DNA from: a virus
DNA: 38,017 nucleotides
Reading direction: 5' to 3' (one strand)
IMG/VR virus record: IMGVR_UViG_3300045988_122921
Part shown: positions 3,070 through 37,508 of the stretch, one piece after another
Numbering within the stretch: the first letter of the stretch is position 1
Layout of the letters: the number at the start of each line of letters is the position of its first letter
Notes under the pieces: generated by a model
Databases searched by the model: none
Told to the model about the DNA's origin: nothing
What the model saw: only the letters and a program-made list of their open reading frames with translations
Program-made: the position numbers and the translations under genes

Positions 3070-3333
3070 ATGATTAATGTTGCTAAATTAAAAGGCCTAA
3101 TTGTTGAAAGAGGAACGACCCAACAAGCTGTAGCTGATTCTATTGGTATAGACAGAAGTACTTTCTACAGAAAAATGAAAAAAGGTGGAGATTTTTCTAT
3201 AGAAGAGGCAAAAGGCATTAAAGAACAGATTCCGTTATCAGATGCAGAAGCGATAGAAATTTTTTTTGGTAAAGAAGTCGCATTTACGCTACAAAGAAAA
3301 GGTTTAGGGGTGGGAACTGATGACCACGTTTGA
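3070..3333 (+). CDS. Cro-like small HTH regulator (87 aa)
   Basis: MINVAKLKGLIVERGTTQQAVADSIGIDRSTFYRKMK is an HTH. ATG 3070 follows GAGAGAGGTG. Divergent from the repressor. The upstream part of track ORF 2716-3333 is antisense to cI. Confidence 0.85.
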   Translation: MINVAKLKGLIVERGTTQQAVADSIGIDRSTFYRKMKKGGDFSIEEAKGIKEQIPLSDAEAIEIFFGKEVAFTLQRKGLGVGTDDHV

Positions 3334-3616
3334 AGAAGCGCTAAAACCATTGTTTGATCAGTGGTTAGAGGAAGCATTGCCAGAAATAGGGTGTAGGTTT
3401 AGACAGGAGATTGAATTGGAGCTAGATGCTAAAAACCAACAAACATTATTCAATCAAACGGAAATGGCGAAACGGCAAGGTGTTTCTGTAGAAACATTTA
3501 GAAAATGGCGGAAAGCTGGCTTGCAAGCAGAACCTAATCCTACTGGTAAATTGTTATTTGATTTAAATAAAGTTAATAACTGGCGAAAAGATAATGTTGC
3601 TAAGAAAGAACTTTAA
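3320..3616 (+). CDS. Small DNA-binding protein, excisionase/MerR-like HTH (candidate Xis)
   Basis: FNQTEMAKRQGVSVETFRKWRKAGL matches an HTH_17-like motif. Located in the early operon. Confidence 0.55.
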   Translation: MTTFEEALKPLFDQWLEEALPEIGCRFRQEIELELDAKNQQTLFNQTEMAKRQGVSVETFRKWRKAGLQAEPNPTGKLLFDLNKVNNWRKDNVAKKEL

Positions 3617-3635
3617 CTAGATAAGGAGGCAGAAC

Positions 3636-3806
3636 ATGAATAAAAATAATGTAAAGCAAGACTTAACCACTCAAGAAATTGCAAAATTGATTATGGAAAT
3701 CAAACTTGGAATTTTACAACAATTAGAAAAAGCGCTTGACCAGGCTATAAAAGAGAAAAACTCCACAATGGTTGCAGCCATTGCAGAGATTTTGAAAAGT
3801 TATTGA
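3636..3806 (+). CDS. Small hypothetical protein, 56 aa (MNKNNVKQDLTTQEIAKLIMEIKLG...)
   Basis: Not in the track. AAGGAGG RBS 6 nt upstream of ATG 3636, open to TGA at 3804-3806. Confidence 0.6.
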   Translation: MNKNNVKQDLTTQEIAKLIMEIKLGILQQLEKALDQAIKEKNSTMVAAIAEILKSY

Positions 3807-15534: not shown

Positions 15535-15585
15535 GTGAGAAATATTTTCGACATAGTTATTATACCACAAAAGGAGCGATTCCAC

Positions 15586-16002
15586 TTGATTCAATTGCTA
15601 AAAGAAGTAGATTTTCGACAAACAAAAGCGAATGCCAGAAATGTGTTGAAGAATTTTAGACGTTTAGAGCGAATAGCTGGTCGCTCTTTGATAGATTTAA
15701 AATCACCAATTATTACAGATATGCCTAAAAGCCAAAGTCATGGGAACAAAGCAGAAGATGCGCTAGTACAATTAGCAGATGCAGAAGCAGAAAGAGACGC
15801 AATTTTATCTGGGCTTATGGCATTAAGCCTAACTAGCAGACAAATTTTGCACTATAGTTTCTGTGTGCAGGACCATTACTCTAATTACAAGATTGCTAGA
15901 GAAGTCGGCTATTCCGAAAGAAGTATTCAAAGAATGAAATCAGAAGCTTTGATTGAATTCGCAGAAGCTTACCGCAATGGAAAAATAATTGCCTATAAAT
16001 AA
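15586..16002 (+). CDS. arpU: ArpU-family late-gene transcriptional regulator (RinA/LtrC superfamily, sigma region-4-like C-terminus)
   Basis: LTSRQILHYSF...YKIAREVGYSERSIQRMKSEALIEFAEAY. Start taken at TTG 15586, 9 nt after AAGGAG. It sits immediately upstream of the packaging region, as in related Gram-positive phages. Confidence 0.8.
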   Translation: MIQLLKEVDFRQTKANARNVLKNFRRLERIAGRSLIDLKSPIITDMPKSQSHGNKAEDALVQLADAEAERDAILSGLMALSLTSRQILHYSFCVQDHYSNYKIAREVGYSERSIQRMKSEALIEFAEAYRNGKIIAYK

Positions 16003-16006
16003 AATT

Positions 16007-16062
16007 TTGGCGGTTTTTTGGCGGAAAGTTGGCGGTTTTTATACGAATTTGAGTGCTAATAT
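16007..16062 (+). promoter_or_regulatory. Three TTGGCGG repeats at exact 11-bp phasing, plus an extended -10 TGCTAATAT
   Basis: TTGGCGG at 16007, 16018 and 16029. TGCTAATAT at 16054-16062. Starts 5 nt after the arpU stop. Confidence 0.5.
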
Positions 16063-16067
16063 AGTAA

Positions 16068-16216
16068 CATCGAAAGTCAAAGAAATGGACACATTACACA
16101 ACACTTTCTGGTTTAGTCACCGTTTGATTTGACTTTCGATGGTCACTTGCAGACATACGTTCTCAATAAAATGAAGTGAGGTGAATAACCTCCTCTTTTT
16201 TCTACAAGTTTGCAAG
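16068..16216 (+). ncRNA. Structured promoter-proximal RNA element, unit 1
   Basis: A perfect 14-bp helix (16068-16081 with 16128-16141) encloses the GTTTAGTCAC motif. GAGG-7nt-CCTC hairpin plus T6 at 16178-16201. A 9-bp outer helix (16145-16153 with 16208-16216). Paralogous to unit 2. Confidence 0.5.
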
Positions 16217-16275
16217 GGATATATTTGGCGATTGCTAGCATATGCAAAAAAAGACAGACAGAAAGGAAGATTTAT

Positions 16276-16539
16276 ATGTTATTGCAAATTGATAAGTTTA
16301 ATAAAAAAGAATTAGAAGGTAAAGAAGCAGCGAAACTTTTAGTGGACTATATCGGAGGGGTTTCAGGGACTTCTTGTGATAGTGACGCAGTTAAAGTTTT
16401 TAACAATAGTAACCCGATTGTCATTACATTTGGCAAGGAGCAAACAACTGCAATTAACCTGCCATATTACGAAGATTTTAAAATTGTTGCAGTATGGCTC
16501 TTAAATGATGAAGGTAAAACACTTCGTAAATTAATATAA
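16276..16539 (+). CDS. Hypothetical protein, 87 aa (MLLQIDKFNKKELEGKEAAKLLVDYIGG...)
   Basis: ATG 16276 follows GAAAGGAAG. Protein-like composition. It is the only credible CDS inside the RNA island. Confidence 0.55.
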   Translation: MLLQIDKFNKKELEGKEAAKLLVDYIGGVSGTSCDSDAVKVFNNSNPIVITFGKEQTTAINLPYYEDFKIVAVWLLNDEGKTLRKLI

Positions 16540-16598
16540 AATAAGCAGTGTTCAATTTGCTTCGGCACTGGAATTGGTTGCTTTTAAGTAGCCATTTG

Positions 16599-16668
16599 CT
16601 ACACTTTTTATACCTTTTTTATACACTTTATCTACACTTCATATACCTTCTAAACGGGTTATTATGAT
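16599..16668 (+). promoter_or_regulatory. Five phased (C/A)TAC(A)CTT repeats plus a -10-like TATGAT
   Basis: ACACTT or ACCTT cores begin at 16601, 16613, 16623, 16634 and 16645 (spacing 10-12 bp). TATGAT at 16663-16668 aligns with the unit-1 -10 region. Confidence 0.4.
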
Positions 16669-16674
16669 AGTGTC

Positions 16675-16887
16675 AAAAAAATAAGAAATGCGACACACTT
16701 ACACAAATACATTAACGGAACGATTGCCTACTTATTTTTTTGATTTGAGATTACAAGGAAGTAAAAAAATCTACTTTCTTCGTTTAGTCACTTGTGATCT
16801 CATTTAGATTCTCTCGCAAACCACCAATTATAAAACTAAAGAAGTGAGGTGAATTTCCTCTCTCTTTTTTCTACAGGTTTGCGAGAG
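16675..16887 (+). ncRNA. Structured promoter-proximal RNA element, unit 2
   Basis: Shares AAGAAATG(C)GACACA(Y)TTACACAA, CTTTCT..GTTTAGTCAC, and GAAGTGAGGTGAAT..CCTC..TTTTTTCTACA.GTTTGC with unit 1. Extra nested helices at 16746-16754 with 16794-16802, and 16755-16763 with 16772-16780. A 12-bp outer helix (16811-16822 with 16876-16887). Confidence 0.5.
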
Positions 16888-16896
16888 TTAAGTTTA

Positions 16897-17026
16897 GTCA
16901 CTGTGGCGGAATAGGTAGACGCTCGTACGTGAGATTAGACATTGGAACAACGTATAAGTTCGTATGTAGGGCTTTGGCCCATCGGATAAATCTAATCATG
17001 CAAGGTGCAAATCCTTGCCAGTGACA
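16897..17026 (+). ncRNA. 130-nt tRNA-like RNA: Leu-type D-arm and perfect acceptor and T stems, with the anticodon arm replaced by a ~78-nt structured insert
   Basis: Acceptor GTCACTG/CAGTGAC (7 bp). TG, then GCGG-AATAGGTAG-ACGC as in class II tRNA-Leu. T arm GCAAGG-TGCAAAT-CCTTGC, where G occupies the normally U55 position. Central 7-bp helix GATTAGA/TCTAATC encloses hairpins. No canonical anticodon loop. Confidence 0.5.
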
Positions 17027-17146
17027 TAATCATTTTAGCCGTGAAAGTCTGCGAAAGCTACGTCCTGATGGGAAAACATTCTGACGAGAGTGTGTAAAGG
17101 TTAATTTGATTTATTAGCAATTGCTAGAAGGTAGCTCCTTCTGGTA

Positions 17147-17220
17147 TGGCGTGTAGCTCAATTGGTGAGAGCGGTTGATTTTTAATCAAGTACATGCAGG
17201 TTCGACTCCTGTCCCGCCAA
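17147..17220 (+). tRNA. tRNA-Lys (anticodon UUU), divergent phage copy
   Basis: Cloverleaf TGGCGTG-TA-GCTC-AATTGGTGA-GAGC-G-GTTGA-TTTTTAA-TCAAG-TACAT-GCAGG-TTCGACT-CCTGT-CCCGCCA-A. It has a 6:67 U/C mismatch, a 27:43 G/G mismatch, U32, and no encoded CCA. Confidence 0.75.
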
Positions 17221-17280
17221 TAAGTGGCAAAACCACTTAAATAAATTAGGAAACGTCAATAGATGTTTCTTTCCTTCACG

Positions 17281-17311
17281 AGAGGCATCCGCTTGCGGGA
17301 TGTCTCTTTTT
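17281..17311 (+). terminator. Rho-independent terminator closing the tRNA unit
   Basis: 10-bp stem AGAGGCATCC/GGATGTCTCT (one G-U) followed by TTTTT. Confidence 0.7.
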
Positions 17312-17317
17312 ACATAC

Positions 17318-17417
17318 AAAAAAACCACCAGTGAAATTAATCATGGGTGGTTAGGTAGCTAGTACGATATGAGGAATTTCATGTGCAAGAAATTTTCTAA
17401 GGTATGTTGCTACCCGT
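17318..17417 (-). ncRNA. Candidate ~100-nt sRNA A (minus strand)
   Basis: Extended -10 TGCTATAAT (rc 17424-17432). Body closed by GGUAGC/GCUACC. Then UAACC, a hairpin (17323-17352) and U7. Confidence 0.5.
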
Positions 17418-17465
17418 GAATAAATTATAGCAAATCATTCATTAATTGTCTTGTCAGAAGCACAT

Positions 17466-17575
17466 AAAAAACCGCTAGTGGTGACATACTAGCGGTTAGG
17501 TAGCAAATTATGTGTCTTTTCATTGAATTATGAATTACATAAGGTGTTGATTAAAAATAAAAGGAGTTGCTACCT
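17466..17575 (-). ncRNA. Candidate ~110-nt sRNA B (minus strand), paralogue of A
   Basis: Extended -10 TGTTATAAT (rc 17582-17590). A 9-11-bp closing helix (17496-17506 with 17567-17577). A 9-bp terminator stem ACCGCTAGT/ACTAGCGGT (17471-17496) plus a U-run. Contains a CUCCUUUU tract. Confidence 0.5.
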
Positions 17576-17655
17576 AATAAAATTATAACAAATAAGAATG
17601 AAGAATAAAAGAGATTGCCTTGATGGCTTCTTTTTTTGTTTGGAGGGAATGAAGG

Positions 17656-17880
17656 ATGGATAATTATTGGTACATATCTCTGAACCACCATTATCCGAAA
17701 CCCATGAAAAACCAACATAAACGGGTAGTAATGTCGGTGCAGATTAAGAAAGACTATTCCATCATTGAGATGACACGAGAAGCTACACCACAAGAAATTG
17801 ACTATTGCAAGTTGCTATATTGCGGTCATGGGTGTTGGAATGACAAGCATGTACAAGAGAATATAAGTAAATACAGATGA
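17656..17880 (+). CDS. Hypothetical protein, 74 aa, Cys-rich C-terminus
   Basis: Track ORF with a GGAGGG RBS. First ORF of the late operon. Confidence 0.55.
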   Translation: MDNYWYISLNHHYPKPMKNQHKRVVMSVQIKKDYSIIEMTREATPQEIDYCKLLYCGHGCWNDKHVQENISKYR

Positions 17881-17920: not shown

Positions 17921-18685
17921 ATGTCTAGAGCTAGAAATCCAAATAGAGAAAAGGCAAAACATCTTTGGTTAGAATCTGAAGGAACAAAGAAATTAAAAGA
18001 TATCGCAATTGAATTAGGTGTTACAGATTCCACTATTAGAAAATGGAAATCTCAAGATAAGTGGGACACTACAATGAAACGGAGCGCTCCGATTGAAACG
18101 GAACGTTACGATACGCTTAAAGGCAATAAAAATGCCCAAGGGAATAAAGGCGGTTCGCCCCCTAAGGGGAATAAGAACGCAGTTAAACACGGAATTTTTG
18201 CTAAGTGGATGCCGGAAGAGACAATAGAAATAATGGAGACCGTTTCCCAATCAGAACCGGCAGATATTCTTTGGAATAACATTATGATTCAATATACAGC
18301 CATTATCCGATCACAACAGATTATGTACGTCAATGATGTCGGAGATATCTCAAAAGAGGAGTCGGGTTGGTCATCTGGCGAAAGTGGAAGCAGTTCTACT
18401 ATGCAAGTTCAATACGCGTGGGATAAACAAGCTAACTTTTTAGCCGCCCAATCTCGAGCAATGGGAACACTATCAAATTTAATTAAACAATTTGTAGCTA
18501 TCGCAGACGAAGCCGATGAACGAAGAGCAAAATTAAGCTTGATAACTGCGAAGATGGAAAAAACACAAGCAGAAGCGAAAATACTTACGAATCAGGCCGA
18601 TAAGTTAACTGCTGGAGGCAAAGCGAACGAATTGTTAGAAGCTTTGCTCAACGTTAAATCACGAGGTGTGAACAATGACAATTAA
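17921..18685 (+). CDS. terS: Terminase small subunit
   Basis: N-terminal HTH (KLKDIAIELGVTDSTIRKWKSQDKW), located directly upstream of terL and overlapping it. Confidence 0.85.
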   Translation: MSRARNPNREKAKHLWLESEGTKKLKDIAIELGVTDSTIRKWKSQDKWDTTMKRSAPIETERYDTLKGNKNAQGNKGGSPPKGNKNAVKHGIFAKWMPEETIEIMETVSQSEPADILWNNIMIQYTAIIRSQQIMYVNDVGDISKEESGWSSGESGSSSTMQVQYAWDKQANFLAAQSRAMGTLSNLIKQFVAIADEADERRAKLSLITAKMEKTQAEAKILTNQADKLTAGGKANELLEALLNVKSRGVNNDN

Positions 18686-37434: not shown

Positions 37435-37508
37435 GGACCATTAGCTCAGTTGGTTAGAGCCAATCGCTCATAACGGTTAGGCCACAGGTTCGAGTCCTGT
37501 ATGGTCCA
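37435..37508 (+). tRNA. tRNA with CAU anticodon (elongator Met, or Ile2 if lysidine-modified)
   Basis: GGACCAT-TA-GCTC-AGTTGGTTA-GAGC-C-AATCG-CTCATAA-CGGTT-AGGCC-ACAGG-TTCGAGT-CCTGT-ATGGTCC-A is a canonical cloverleaf. It is not initiator-like (1:72 is paired, and there is no GGG/CCC anticodon stem). Confidence 0.9.

What the first reader, a model, noticed from the sequence alone, without database searches (positions are those of the whole stretch)
16054..16887. Two paralogous promoter-proximal structured RNA elements whose helices differ by compensatory changes
Unit 1 (16054-16216) and unit 2 (16660-16887) share several blocks:
- a -10 region (TGCTAATATAGTA versus TATGATAGTG)
- AAGAAATG(C)GACACA(Y)TTACACAA
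- CTTTCT..GTTTAGTCAC
- GAAGTGAGGTGAAT..CCTC..TTTTTTCTACA.GTTTGC.

In both units a helix brackets the hairpin and U-tract. In unit 1 it is CTTGCAGAC/GTTTGCAAG; in unit 2 it is CTCTCGCAAACC/GGTTTGCGAGAG. One pair changes U-A to C-G, and one changes G-U to A-U, both of which preserve pairing.

The small peptides readable in each unit fall in different frames relative to the conserved nucleotides. Conservation is therefore at the RNA or DNA level, not the protein level. Unit 2 carries a ~65-nt insertion that forms two nested 9-bp helices of its own.
Basis: seen in the sequence. Interest (0 to 1): 0.75.

Follow-up and report, generated by a model that had tools for sequence, protein, structure and literature searches.

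The report
Structured leader RNAs of phage late operon
The two look-alike elements are two versions of the folded, non-coding RNA leader that begins the late (packaging and lysis) transcript of Enterococcus temperate phages, placed in tandem here by recombination; this RNA family is conserved and undescribed, and what it does is still unproven.

Summary
The window is a phiFL2A-like Enterococcus faecalis prophage.

Unit 1 (16054-16220) starts at the ArpU-dependent late promoter. It lies directly after three TTGGCGG boxes that have been shown experimentally to bind ArpU in phiFL2A.

Unit 2 (16660-16887) is a second allele of the same leader. It normally follows a different ArpU-family regulator. 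Here only the last 13 codons of that gene survive (16550-16588).

Across 263 related loci there are three leader types (t1, t2, t3). Tandem copies occur only in this lineage.

A published dRNA-seq start site in strain V583 falls on the base just before TCGAAAG in the t3 allele. That is where the 5' stem begins.

The 3' helix ("stem B") has four pairs with changes on both sides, and 97% of cells are paired. The small hairpin inside it varies only through G.U wobble pairs. Prophages of at least seven other Enterococcus species keep the same architecture with unrelated stem sequences.

Rfam has no matching family.

Function is inferred. Most likely this is a cis-acting RNA that controls elongation into the late operon, acting as an attenuator or gate. 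Strong terminators lie further downstream. Rival readings are an antiterminator RNA, a 5' stabiliser, or a released small RNA.

The parts
15535..16002 (+). arpU, the late transcriptional regulator (Ltr family I) and last early gene
   Evidence: Matches phrog_248 'transcriptional activator' at E 4.9e-46. It is 100% identical by tblastn to the phiFL2A gene region, whose ArpU (gp33) was characterised experimentally.
16007..16035 (+). three TTGGCGG direct repeats at 11-bp spacing (16007, 16018, 16029), the ArpU binding boxes
   Evidence: The identical repeats in phiFL2A are required for ArpU binding in gel-shift assays and for reporter activation (PMC3753634).
16054..16069 (+). late promoter of unit 1: extended -10 TGcTAATAT (16054-16062), inferred start at A16069
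   Evidence: Sequence. The start is inferred by analogy with the V583 dRNA-seq start site, which falls on the base before TCGAAAG in the t3 allele.
16069..16140 (+). unit 1 5' domain: 13-14-bp stem A (16069-16081 with 16128-16140), with block I (16080-16101) and block II (16104-16120) in its loop
   Evidence: (I6).
16142..16220 (+). unit 1 3' domain: stem B (16146-16154 with 16208-16216) enclosing hairpin GAGGU/ACCUC (16178-16192) and a U6 tract (16196-16201)
   Evidence: (covariance-model score 88.1 bits).
16276..16539 (+). 87-aa ORF of unknown function (phrog_9473). It is one of the alternative cargo cassettes found downstream of leaders
   Evidence: The same cassette follows t1 or t2 leaders in 11 loci.
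16550..16591 (+). remnant of a second ArpU-family regulator gene: the last 13 codons plus the stop codon
   Evidence: tblastn gives 13/13 identical residues (143-155) and finds no other copy in the window. The full 155-aa gene is present in t2-only phages such as L012 and also matches phrog_248.
16595..16672 (+). unit 2 promoter: four or five repeats with an 11-bp period (16595-16649), -10 TATTAT (16660-16665), inferred start at G16672
   Evidence: D1. The segment TTATTATGATAGTG differs at one base from the V583 t3 promoter TTATTATGGTAGTG, whose last G is the mapped start site.
16673..16801 (+). unit 2 5' domain: stem A (16673-16685 with 16731-16743; block I 16683-16706 in its loop) and stem C (16747-16757 with 16791-16801; block II 16774-16791 in its loop)
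   Evidence: (I8).
16807..16889 (+). unit 2 3' domain: stem B (16811-16822 with 16876-16887) enclosing hairpin GAGG/CCUC (16846-16860) and a U6 tract (16865-16870)
   Evidence: I13; 107.3 bits.
16897..17220 (+). rest of the late leader: tRNA-like element (16897-17025), a conserved ~115-nt element, and tRNA-Lys(UUU) at 17147-17220
17280..17311 (+). strong intrinsic terminator inside the late leader, upstream of the first late genes
   Evidence: -17.3 kcal/mol followed by U5. Equivalent terminators occur in phiFL2A, IME197, L144, L300, L301 and L304.
17921..18685 (+). terS (small terminase), at the start of the packaging module
   Evidence: Pfam PF10668 at 7.5e-23 and phrog_509 at 3.2e-84.

Best explanation
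Identity (high confidence). Each unit is the promoter plus the first 150-215 nt of the untranslated, highly structured 5' leader of the late transcript. That transcript covers packaging, morphogenesis and lysis genes and is activated by an ArpU/Ltr-family regulator.

Unit 1 is the phage's own late promoter and leader (allele t1). Unit 2 is allele t2. It was brought in, together with the tail of its own regulator gene, by recombination in the variable cargo region downstream of the leader. It now sits inside the transcript that starts at unit 1.

Mechanism (inferred, moderate to low confidence). The leader acts in cis as RNA at the entrance to the late operon.
- A 13-14-bp stem forms from the first transcribed bases.
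- The conserved loops (blocks I and II) are held single-stranded.
- A final helix, stem B, encloses a purine-rich Shine-Dalgarno-like strand paired to a CCUC strand. In E. faecalis phages an invariant U6-CUACA follows.

I read the hairpin plus U6 as a promoter-proximal weak terminator or pause. Together with the strong terminator further down the leader (17280-17311), it would gate and insulate the lethal late genes. There is no terminator between arpU and the late promoter, so early read-through and basal transcription would be stopped here. Only the burst of initiation driven by ArpU, possibly helped by the leader RNA itself, would put polymerases into terS.

The leader is later cut away from the mRNA by processing of the tRNA or tRNA-like cargo.
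For: Shown:
- The ArpU boxes are identical to those required for binding and activation in phiFL2A.
- The V583 dRNA-seq primary start site is the last G of ...TTATTATGGTAGTG, directly before TCGAAAG.
- The t1, t2 and t3 leaders follow three different regulators with different box sequences: TTGGCGG, TTAGGGT and TACAC-type repeats. The leader is therefore independent of activator specificity.
- Stem B: on 50 distinct sequences, 97.4% of cells are paired against 34-54% when the partner is slid. Four pairs have changes on both sides, and no shuffle in 500 reaches the observed covariation score.
- All variants in the inner hairpin stem are G.U wobbles, which fit only an RNA read from the + strand.
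- E. hirae, lactis/faecium, gallinarum, thailandicus, mundtii and pallens, an unnamed Enterococcus species (AZ172) and a phage record labelled Listeria (organism unverified) keep boxes, an extended -10 and a structured leader. In these the outer helix has an unrelated sequence and encloses an A-rich tract, an AAAGGAAGUG-like strand and a CUCC strand. Covariance-model hits lie exactly there, with E from 0.0015 to 3.7 and four of the eight at or below 0.14. The enclosing helix is more stable than at least 479 of 500 shuffles (z at or below -1.9) in 10 of 11 cases.
- All leaders fold with z from -2.2 to -6.5.
- A hairpin followed by U6 is the only terminator-like motif the scan finds on the + strand between arpU and terS in phiFL2A. 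A stronger imperfect hairpin seen by eye lies 30-60 nt before terS; it folds at -16.9 kcal/mol.
- The published control found no read-through from Pcad without ArpU, so there are functional terminators in this intergenic region.
- The published 5' RACE end (a G 118 nt upstream of terS) falls 2-3 nt after the 3' end of the leader tRNA. This means the leader is processed off, and the mRNA runs through the strong terminator.

Inferred: the gating role itself.
Against: - The hairpin alone is weak, at -3.7 to -7.6 kcal/mol.
- The U6 tract is not conserved outside E. faecalis.
- In E. hirae, E. faecium and E. mundtii no strong terminator follows the leader. The universally conserved parts, namely the 5' stem and stem B with its Shine-Dalgarno-like hairpin, therefore cannot be explained by termination alone.
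- Sequence is invariant beyond the U tract (CUACAGGUUUG). This suggests specific recognition rather than a generic terminator.
- Common t1 variants carry uncompensated U.U or U.C mismatches in stem A.
- No 3'-end mapping data were available.
- The evidence comes from few independent lineages: three alleles plus about five species-level stem families.
Confidence: 0.45

Rival explanations
1. Cis-acting processive antiterminator RNA, like HK022 put, the Bacillus EAR element or plasmid conAn2. The folded leader would modify the polymerase that made it, so that the polymerase reads through the leader's own U6 site and the strong terminators and moron terminators lying between the late promoter and terS.
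For: - Strong terminators (-13 to -17 kcal/mol, U5-U7) lie between the late promoter and the first late gene in the window, phiFL2A, IME197, L144, L300, L301 and L304. In S. suis, S. pneumoniae and L. paracasei ArpU phages they sit immediately before the first ribosome-binding site, leaving no room for another promoter.
- The phiFL2A terS mRNA 5' end lies upstream of such a terminator, so read-through happens in vivo.
- The phiFL2A leader still allows reporter expression when driven by RinA or LtrC boxes in S. aureus. No Enterococcus-specific protein is therefore needed.
- The element is promoter-proximal, exists as paralogous copies, and has helices that covary. This is the same signature that defined putL and putR.
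Against: - Transcripts reading in from Pcad also contain the leader, yet gave no reporter activity without ArpU. A promoter-independent RNA antiterminator should have rescued them.
- The arpU deletion abolishes late expression, although early transcripts run into the leader.
- tRNA processing would cut the tether between the leader and the polymerase.
- There is no Rfam match to any known antiterminator RNA.
- Some species have the leader but no downstream terminator.
Confidence: 0.2
2. A 5' mRNA stabiliser or processing module. A stem-loop starting at +1/+2, together with a Shine-Dalgarno-like polypurine sequence that has no start codon (STAB-SD type), would protect the late RNA from RNase J1 or RNase Y and define processing sites.
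For: - The stem starts at the mapped or inferred first bases in all alleles.
- A motif like AAAGGAAGUG or GAAGUGAGGUGA is conserved across species and has no usable start codon downstream.
- This is the only feature set shared by all species, including those without terminators.
- These features are established determinants of RNA stability in Bacillus (aprE leader, cryIIIA STAB-SD; from general knowledge).
Against: - In most E. faecalis loci a tRNA starts within about 5-10 nt of stem B (142 of 263). The mature terS mRNA begins after the tRNA, so the stabiliser would be severed from the mRNA it should protect.
- The Shine-Dalgarno-like strand is base-paired.
- This model does not explain the invariant U6-CUACA.
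Confidence: 0.15
3. A trans-acting small RNA. The leader would be released, either by termination at U6 or by RNase P cleavage at the downstream tRNA, as an abundant structured RNA of 135-215 nt. It would then act on host or phage targets, as the PR'-derived 6S and StxS RNAs of lambdoid phages do.
For: - Both ends are closed by stems, and conserved single-stranded loops (blocks I and II) are displayed. Block II (CUUUCU..GUUUAGUC) is shared by t1, t2 and t3.
- Cleavage from the mRNA is implied.
- There is precedent in StxS (PMC7547250, seen).
Against: - No target or partner was identified.
- The loop blocks are not conserved outside E. faecalis.
- The V583 start site was not flagged as a small RNA and has a low step height of 35 in uninduced cells.
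Confidence: 0.12
4. DNA-level element or neutral duplicate: a pac/terminase site, a protein-binding inverted repeat, a dispersed repeat (MITE-like), or a recent duplication with no function.
For: - Long perfect inverted repeats with 45-55-nt spacers could be protein sites on DNA.
- The 3' arm of stem B coincides with the recombination junction to the variable cargo.
Against: - The same t1 leader precedes unrelated small terminases: window versus phiFL2A gives only 13/40 identities in the helix-turn-helix region, E 0.011.
- G.U pairs and wobble-only variation are asymmetric to the + strand.
- There are only two copies in the window, none dispersed, and always at the same place after the regulator.
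- The two units are about 60% identical outside the blocks and occur separately in more than 200 phages, so this is not a recent duplication.
Confidence: 0.05

Closest known systems
ArpU-dependent terS promoter region of Enterococcus phage phiFL2A (Ltr superfamily; Quiles-Puchalt et al. 2013, PMC3753634)
   Same: This is the same locus in a close relative. ArpU is 100% identical by tblastn, the three TTGGCGG boxes are identical, and the t1 leader is nearly identical.
   Different: That work defined the boxes and a 5' RACE end 118 nt before terS. It did not describe the leader. Here the start site is placed about 730 nt further upstream, next to the boxes, and this is supported by V583 dRNA-seq. 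The RACE end is reinterpreted as a tRNA-processing end. The window also carries a second, orphan promoter and leader allele.
Lambdoid late leader: PR'-qut-tR' (6S RNA; StxS in Stx phages)
   Same: Both are short structured RNAs made from the late promoter, with terminator(s) between the promoter and the packaging and lysis genes. In both, the regulator gene lies immediately upstream.
   Different: PR' is constitutive and Q is an antiterminator. Here the promoter is activator-dependent, ArpU is a DNA-binding Ltr protein, the first terminator-like site is weak, and no antitermination factor is known.
HK022 putL/putR, Bacillus EAR and plasmid conAn2 processive antiterminator RNAs
   Same: All are promoter-proximal and non-coding, built from multiple stem-loops, with paralogous copies whose helices covary. 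conAn2 is likewise a leader of about 280 nt bracketed by a long inverted repeat with inner stem-loops.
   Different: There is no sequence or Rfam relationship. Antitermination activity has not been shown. The Pcad control argues against promoter-independent action.
Firmicute 5' stabilisers (aprE/ermC 5'-terminal stem-loops; cryIIIA STAB-SD; SP82 polypurine stabiliser)
   Same: Both have a stem beginning at +1/+2 and a Shine-Dalgarno-like polypurine tract without a start codon in a 5' UTR.
   Different: Here the polypurine strand is paired and enclosed in a helix, and the leader is cut off from the mRNA in most E. faecalis phages.

Membership tests
Ltr/ArpU-dependent late promoter (as defined in phiFL2A) | [quoted passage not shown] | tested here: met
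   Unit 1 starts 52 nt after the arpU stop codon, and terS is at 17921. Unit 2 follows only a 13-codon remnant of its regulator gene.
Ltr/ArpU-dependent late promoter (as defined in phiFL2A) | Three or more 7-nt direct repeats that the regulator binds | tested here: met
   Unit 1 has TTGGCGG three times at 11-bp spacing, identical to phiFL2A. Unit 2 has a different set of four or five repeats with an 11-bp period (D1). Binding itself was not tested here.
Ltr/ArpU-dependent late promoter (as defined in phiFL2A) | Transcription start adjacent to the repeats | tested here: inconclusive
   A V583 dRNA-seq start site lies 7 nt after the -10 in the t3 allele. For this window's t1 and t2 alleles the start is inferred by alignment only.
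Intrinsic (Rho-independent) terminator | Stable GC-rich hairpin immediately followed by a U tract | tested here: inconclusive
   A U6 tract is present 3-4 nt after the hairpin, but the stem has only 4-5 bp and folds at -3.7 to -7.6 kcal/mol. It passes the simple scan. No 3'-end data were available.
put / EAR / conAn2 processive antiterminator RNAs | Sequence and structure membership in the described families | tested here: not met
   No Rfam 15 match at gathering score or at E up to 5 in the window, and none at E up to 0.1 or 1 in the related loci. conAn2 features, such as the GC-rich box, were not seen.
put / EAR / conAn2 processive antiterminator RNAs | Confers read-through of downstream terminators in cis | not testable with these tools
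   Only indirect evidence exists. Terminators are present downstream, and the mRNA spans one of them. The Pcad control argues against this.
Lambdoid PR'-tR' late leader | Constitutive late promoter plus a Q-family antiterminator gene upstream | tested here: not met
   The upstream gene is ArpU (phrog_248), not Q. The promoter depends on ArpU and is weak in uninduced V583, with a step height of 35.
STAB-SD / 5'-terminal stem stabiliser | Shine-Dalgarno-like polypurine sequence without a start codon, and a stem within about 4 nt of the 5' end | tested here: met
   GAAGUGAGGUGA is present and no ATG, GTG or TTG lies at a usable spacing. The stem starts at +1/+2. An effect on stability was not tested.
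Protein-coding small ORF | Conserved reading frame between copies | tested here: not met
   Indels in blocks I and III shift the frame. The ORFs that overlap the units (16181-16315; 16688-16807) are unrelated to each other.

The most novel reading that the evidence does not exclude
The leader is the cis-acting RNA component of a previously unrecognised antitermination system for late genes in ArpU/Ltr phages of Lactobacillales. It would work only when it forms at the very 5' end of a transcript started at the late promoter. It would let RNA polymerase pass the weak U6 site and the strong terminators and moron terminators that, in Enterococcus, Streptococcus and Lacticaseibacillus phages, sit between the promoter and the first late gene.

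A corollary for this window is that the tandem t1 and t2 promoters give the late operon two inputs: its own ArpU, and the regulator of a co-resident t2 prophage.
Probability: 0.2. Interest if true: 0.85.

Novelty: new variant of a known kind. Interest (0 to 1): 0.6.

Why it matters
Late-gene control in temperate phages of Gram-positive bacteria is currently described as simple activation by Ltr proteins (RinA, ArpU and relatives) at a promoter just upstream of terS.

These data change that picture for Enterococcus phages. The start site lies next to the ArpU boxes. It is 700-1900 nt upstream of terS in phiFL2A and in this window, and 250-1000 nt upstream of the first late gene in the other Enterococcus prophages examined.

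The transcript begins with a conserved, covarying RNA that is absent from Rfam. The leader also carries tRNAs, tRNA-like RNAs, morons and often strong terminators.

This makes a concrete question testable: how do late transcripts get through the terminators, and what is the leader for? The answer bears on control of lysis timing, on phage-mediated gene transfer, and on mobilisation of satellites in E. faecalis. It would also provide a new RNA family for annotating prophages.

Tried and rejected
- Rfam: no family covers the units, at gathering score or at permissive E-values, in the window or in seven related loci. The only hit there was a spurious MIR172 match to the long hairpin.
- Genome-collection scan: a 19-base pattern against one genome per species gave only four chance hits in unrelated metagenome-assembled genomes.
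- Protein coding: rejected.
- pac site or terminase binding: rejected, because the same leader precedes unrelated TerS proteins.
- Dispersed repeat or MITE: rejected. There are only two copies in the window, and the position is fixed.
- Retrieval of distant loci through the ArpU alignment in IMG/VR returned only relatives at or above 94% identity. This did reveal allele t3. Distant leaders were obtained instead through a protein search plus contig look-ups.
- The covariance-model alignment of cross-species hits (A4) was contaminated by minus-strand and spurious hits. I did not use it for pair counting and ran a shuffle test of the enclosing helix instead.
- I looked by eye for pairing between block II and the hairpin, and between the 5' arm of stem B and the hairpin (an antiterminator-type alternative fold). 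The registers differ between alleles and nothing covaries, so I dropped the idea.
- L157, where the late promoter is fused to a short hairpin, first looked like a natural leaderless phage. It lacks terS and terL and runs straight into a portal-like ORF. It is probably a defective prophage and is not informative.
- The inner helix predicted within stem A of unit 1 (16083-16088 with 16120-16125) is not maintained in common t1 variants.
Full report
**What the window is**

The region matches Enterococcus faecalis temperate phages of the phiFL1/phiFL2/phiEf11 group at 85-99% identity.
- The ORF at 15535-16002 is an ArpU-family late regulator. It matches phrog_248 at E 4.9e-46 and is 100% identical by tblastn to the phiFL2A gene.
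- terS and terL follow at 17921 and 18675.
- The finding therefore lies in the 1.9-kb non-coding and cargo region between the last early gene and the packaging genes.

**Check of the observation**

- The two patterns that match both units each occur exactly twice in the window, against 0.00 expected in shuffles.
- Both units fold far better than shuffled controls, with z about -5.
- The bracketing helices and the two differences between them (U-A to C-G; G.U to A-U) are as described.
- No reading frame is shared.

One detail is wrong. The extra ~65 nt of unit 2 is not a self-contained pair of nested helices. It provides the 3' arm of a 13-bp stem that starts at the 5' end (16673-16685 with 16731-16743). 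It also provides the 5' arm of a second stem (16747-16757 with 16791-16801).

As a result, the single long hairpin of unit 1 (16069-16081 with 16128-16140), which holds blocks I and II in its loop, corresponds to two hairpins in unit 2. Each of those presents one block.

**What the units are**

Directly after the arpU stop codon lie three TTGGCGG repeats at 11-bp spacing (16007, 16018, 16029). An extended -10, TGcTAATAT, follows.

Quiles-Puchalt et al. (PMC3753634) worked on these repeats in phiFL2A:
- The three 7-nt repeats distal to arpU are absolutely required for ArpU-dependent activation of a terS reporter.
- ArpU binding was lost when two or more repeats were mutated.
- Deleting arpU abolishes late transcription and phage production.

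A scan of IMG/VR for the hairpin block returned more than 114 loci. These leaders fall into two types:
- Type t1 always follows an ArpU homologue. This includes a 37%-identical ArpU that has its own TTAGGGT repeats.
- Type t2 follows a different 155-aa regulator, also phrog_248, that has its own repeats with an 11-bp period.

Fetching loci through the regulators revealed a third type, t3. It is 311 nt long and follows the same ArpU and TTGGCGG boxes, but with another -10 and another set of stems.

In total, 263 fetched loci carry a leader. Counting distinct 400-nt contexts gives 46 for t1, 58 for t2 and 24 for t3.

Besides the window, only three loci have two leaders in tandem, and two of those come from one contig. 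All show the window's arrangement.

In the window, unit 2 is preceded by only the last 13 codons of the t2 regulator gene (16550-16588). No full copy exists elsewhere in the window.

The tandem state is therefore a mosaic junction. Its layout is: t1 leader, an 87-aa ORF cassette, the tail of the t2 regulator gene, the t2 promoter and the t2 leader.

**Start site**

The V583 dRNA-seq table (Michaux et al. 2020, PMC7724050) lists an enriched start site at 1952358 on the minus strand. Its 51-nt sequence, TGGCGGAAAGTTGGCGGTTTTTATCAATATTTAGATGTTATTATGGTAGTG, ends on the start base.
- This sequence is the ArpU boxes plus the t3 promoter. The start is the G immediately before TCGAAAG, where the t3 5' stem begins.
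- The unit 2 promoter differs at one base in the last 14 (TTATTATGATAGTG|TCAAAAA), which places its start at G16672.
- Unit 1 has TAATAT followed by 6 nt and then ATCGAAAG, which places its start at A16069.
- The last ArpU box is then centred near -37, as expected for an activator that replaces the -35 contact (inference).

The published 5' RACE end for phiFL2A is a G 118 nt before the terS ATG. That is position 3680 of L001, 2-3 nt after the 3' end of a tRNA-Arg at 3604-3678. I therefore read it as a processing end, not a start site. It follows that the leader is removed from the mature terS mRNA.

**Structure evidence**

I aligned 50 distinct 3' domains of t1, t2 and t3. The results are:
- The 12-bp stem B plus the 4-bp hairpin are paired in 97.4% of cells, against 34-54% when the partners are slid.
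- Four stem B pairs show changes on both sides: AU/UA, CG/UA, GC/AU and CG/UA.
- No shuffle in 500 reaches the observed covariation score.

Every variant in the hairpin stem is a G.U wobble (A-U to G.U; G-C to G.U, twice). These fit only an RNA read from the + strand.

Natural t1/t2 recombinants break one pair or convert it to a wobble.

These counts reflect only a few independent events, because the sequences fall into three clades.

Independent support comes from other species. ArpU homologues at 61-81% identity were traced to prophages of E. hirae, E. lactis/faecium, E. gallinarum, E. thailandicus, E. mundtii, E. pallens, Enterococcus spp. and Tetragenococcus.
- All have 3-5 direct repeats, an extended -10 and a leader usually starting TCGAAAG or TATCAA.
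- All but Tetragenococcus also have a final helix of 8-15 bp. Its sequence is unrelated between lineages (for example AUAGACAGCAGCGG/CCGUUGCUGUCUAU, GGCGGCAC/GUGCCGCC, AAGACGGC/GCCGUCUU).
- That helix encloses an A-rich tract, a strand like AAAGGAAGUG, a loop (often UGAAU) and a CUCC strand.
- The E. faecalis covariance model hits exactly these places, with E from 0.0015 to 3.7; four of the eight are at or below 0.14.
- The enclosing helix is more stable than at least 479 of 500 shuffles (z at or below -1.9) in 10 of 11 cases.

For the 5' stem the evidence is weaker. Its position is constant, starting at +1/+2, and its sequence is completely different in t1, t2 and t3. However, common t1 variants carry an uncompensated mismatch.

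**What follows the leader**

Sequence diverges immediately after the 3' arm of stem B. What follows is a tRNA gene in 142 of 263 loci, a tRNA-like element, a ~230-nt element, or the 87-aa ORF cassette.

Further downstream there is a strong intrinsic terminator before the first late genes.
- It is seen in the window (17280-17311, -17.3 kcal/mol), phiFL2A, IME197, L144, L300, L301 and L304.
- In ArpU phages of S. suis, S. pneumoniae and L. paracasei it lies directly before the first ribosome-binding site.
- It is not universal. E. hirae, E. faecium and E. mundtii prophages lack it.

**Mechanism**

What is shown: the promoter context, the start site (for the t3 allele), the RNA-level constraint on stem B and the hairpin, independence from activator type and from TerS type, and removal of the leader from the mature mRNA.

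What is inferred: I favour a cis-acting role in elongation control at the entrance to the late operon.
- There is no terminator between arpU and the late promoter, so early transcripts run into the leader.
- The published control showed that Pcad read-through does not reach terS without ArpU, so terminators in this region work.
- The invariant hairpin plus U6 in E. faecalis is the first such signal, although it is weak.
- The parsimonious reading is a gate or attenuator that only the ArpU-driven burst overcomes.

A put-like or conAn2-like antiterminator RNA is the most interesting alternative.
- In its favour: terminators lie before the late genes, the mRNA spans one of them, and the leader works with RinA or LtrC boxes in S. 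aureus.
- Against it: the Pcad control, and the fact that tRNA processing would cut the tether to the polymerase.

A 5' stabiliser role fits the universally conserved features, namely the 5'-terminal stem and the Shine-Dalgarno-like strand. It conflicts with the leader being cut off the mRNA. A released small RNA remains possible.

**Novelty**

The ArpU boxes and the activator are already known. Three things are not described in the papers I read or in Rfam 15:
- the leader RNA family, with its alleles and its covarying helix;
- the relocation of the start site;
- the leader's multi-element grammar.

I rate it a new variant of a known kind, namely promoter-proximal cis-acting leader RNAs of phage late operons.

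Noticed in passing
window 16897-17025 (+); also L001 3436-3493, L002 ~3378-3577, L295 ~3155-3245, L306 1201-1336: An unannotated tRNA-like RNA. It has a 7-bp acceptor-like stem (GUCACUG/CAGUGAC), a T-arm (GCAAGG-UGCAAAU-CCUUGC) and a D-arm-like segment. The anticodon arm is replaced by an insertion whose length varies from 0 to about 140 nt between phages. ARAGORN and Rfam do not call it. A 136-nt stretch of it is 98-99% identical in 150-kb lytic Schiekvirus phages, where it sits inside the tRNA gene cluster.
   Followed up: partly
window 17030-17145 (+): A conserved non-coding element of about 115 nt (TAATCATTTTAGCCGTGAAAGTCTGCGAAAGCTACGTCCTGATGGG...). It lies between the tRNA-like RNA and tRNA-Lys and is shared with phiFL2A, VEsP-1, IME197 and L302. 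The only nearby Rfam hit is a weak YrlA match at 17102-17206 (E 1.1), which mostly overlaps the tRNA.
   Followed up: no
L001 (phiFL2A) 3604-3680: The published 'transcription start' of phiFL2A terS, a G 118 nt upstream of the ATG, lies 2-3 nt after the 3' end of a leader tRNA-Arg. It looks like a tRNA-processing end, not a promoter start.
   Followed up: yes
window 17280-17311 (+) and equivalent sites in L001, L003, L144, L300, L301, L304, L308-L310: A strong intrinsic terminator lies between the ArpU-dependent promoter and the first late gene in many ArpU phages of Enterococcus, Streptococcus and Lacticaseibacillus. It is often immediately before the first ribosome-binding site, which implies that late transcription must read through it.
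   Followed up: partly
window 17316-17650: Repeated GGTAGC/GCTACC inverted motifs, a good sigma-70-like promoter on the minus strand (17452-17424, with TG) and a minus-strand terminator (17497-17470). This suggests a small minus-strand transcript or moron inside the late leader.
   Followed up: no
window 17656-17880 (+); L144 2784-3014; L304 2326-2550: A conserved 74-76-aa ORF (N-terminus M..YWYVSL) is the first late ORF, ahead of terS, in several phages. Its function is unknown.
   Followed up: no
window 16276-16539 (+): An 87-aa ORF (phrog_9473, unknown function) sits between the two units. The same cassette follows t1 or t2 leaders in other phages, so it behaves as exchangeable cargo.
   Followed up: partly
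L157 1951-2100: A prophage in which the ArpU promoter and the first 10 nt of the leader are fused to a short hairpin and a portal-like ORF, with no terS or terL. It is probably a deletion derivative.
   Followed up: partly
V583 chromosome 1951741 and 1951822 (-), from PMC7724050 Table S1: Two further start sites lie about 540-620 nt downstream of the pp4 late promoter, upstream of EF2022. One has a canonical TTGACC-17-TATAAT promoter. This points to a moron in the leader cargo region that is expressed in the lysogen.
   Followed up: no
L302/L303 ~2000-2290: The first ~27 nt of the t1 leader are fused to a different structured RNA of about 200 nt. That RNA ends in the same T-arm and acceptor 3' half (GGUUCGAAUCCUUGCCAGUGACA). 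There is no Rfam match.
   Followed up: no
window 37435-37508 (+): A tRNA-Met gene near the end of the window. It may mark the prophage boundary or attachment site.
   Followed up: no
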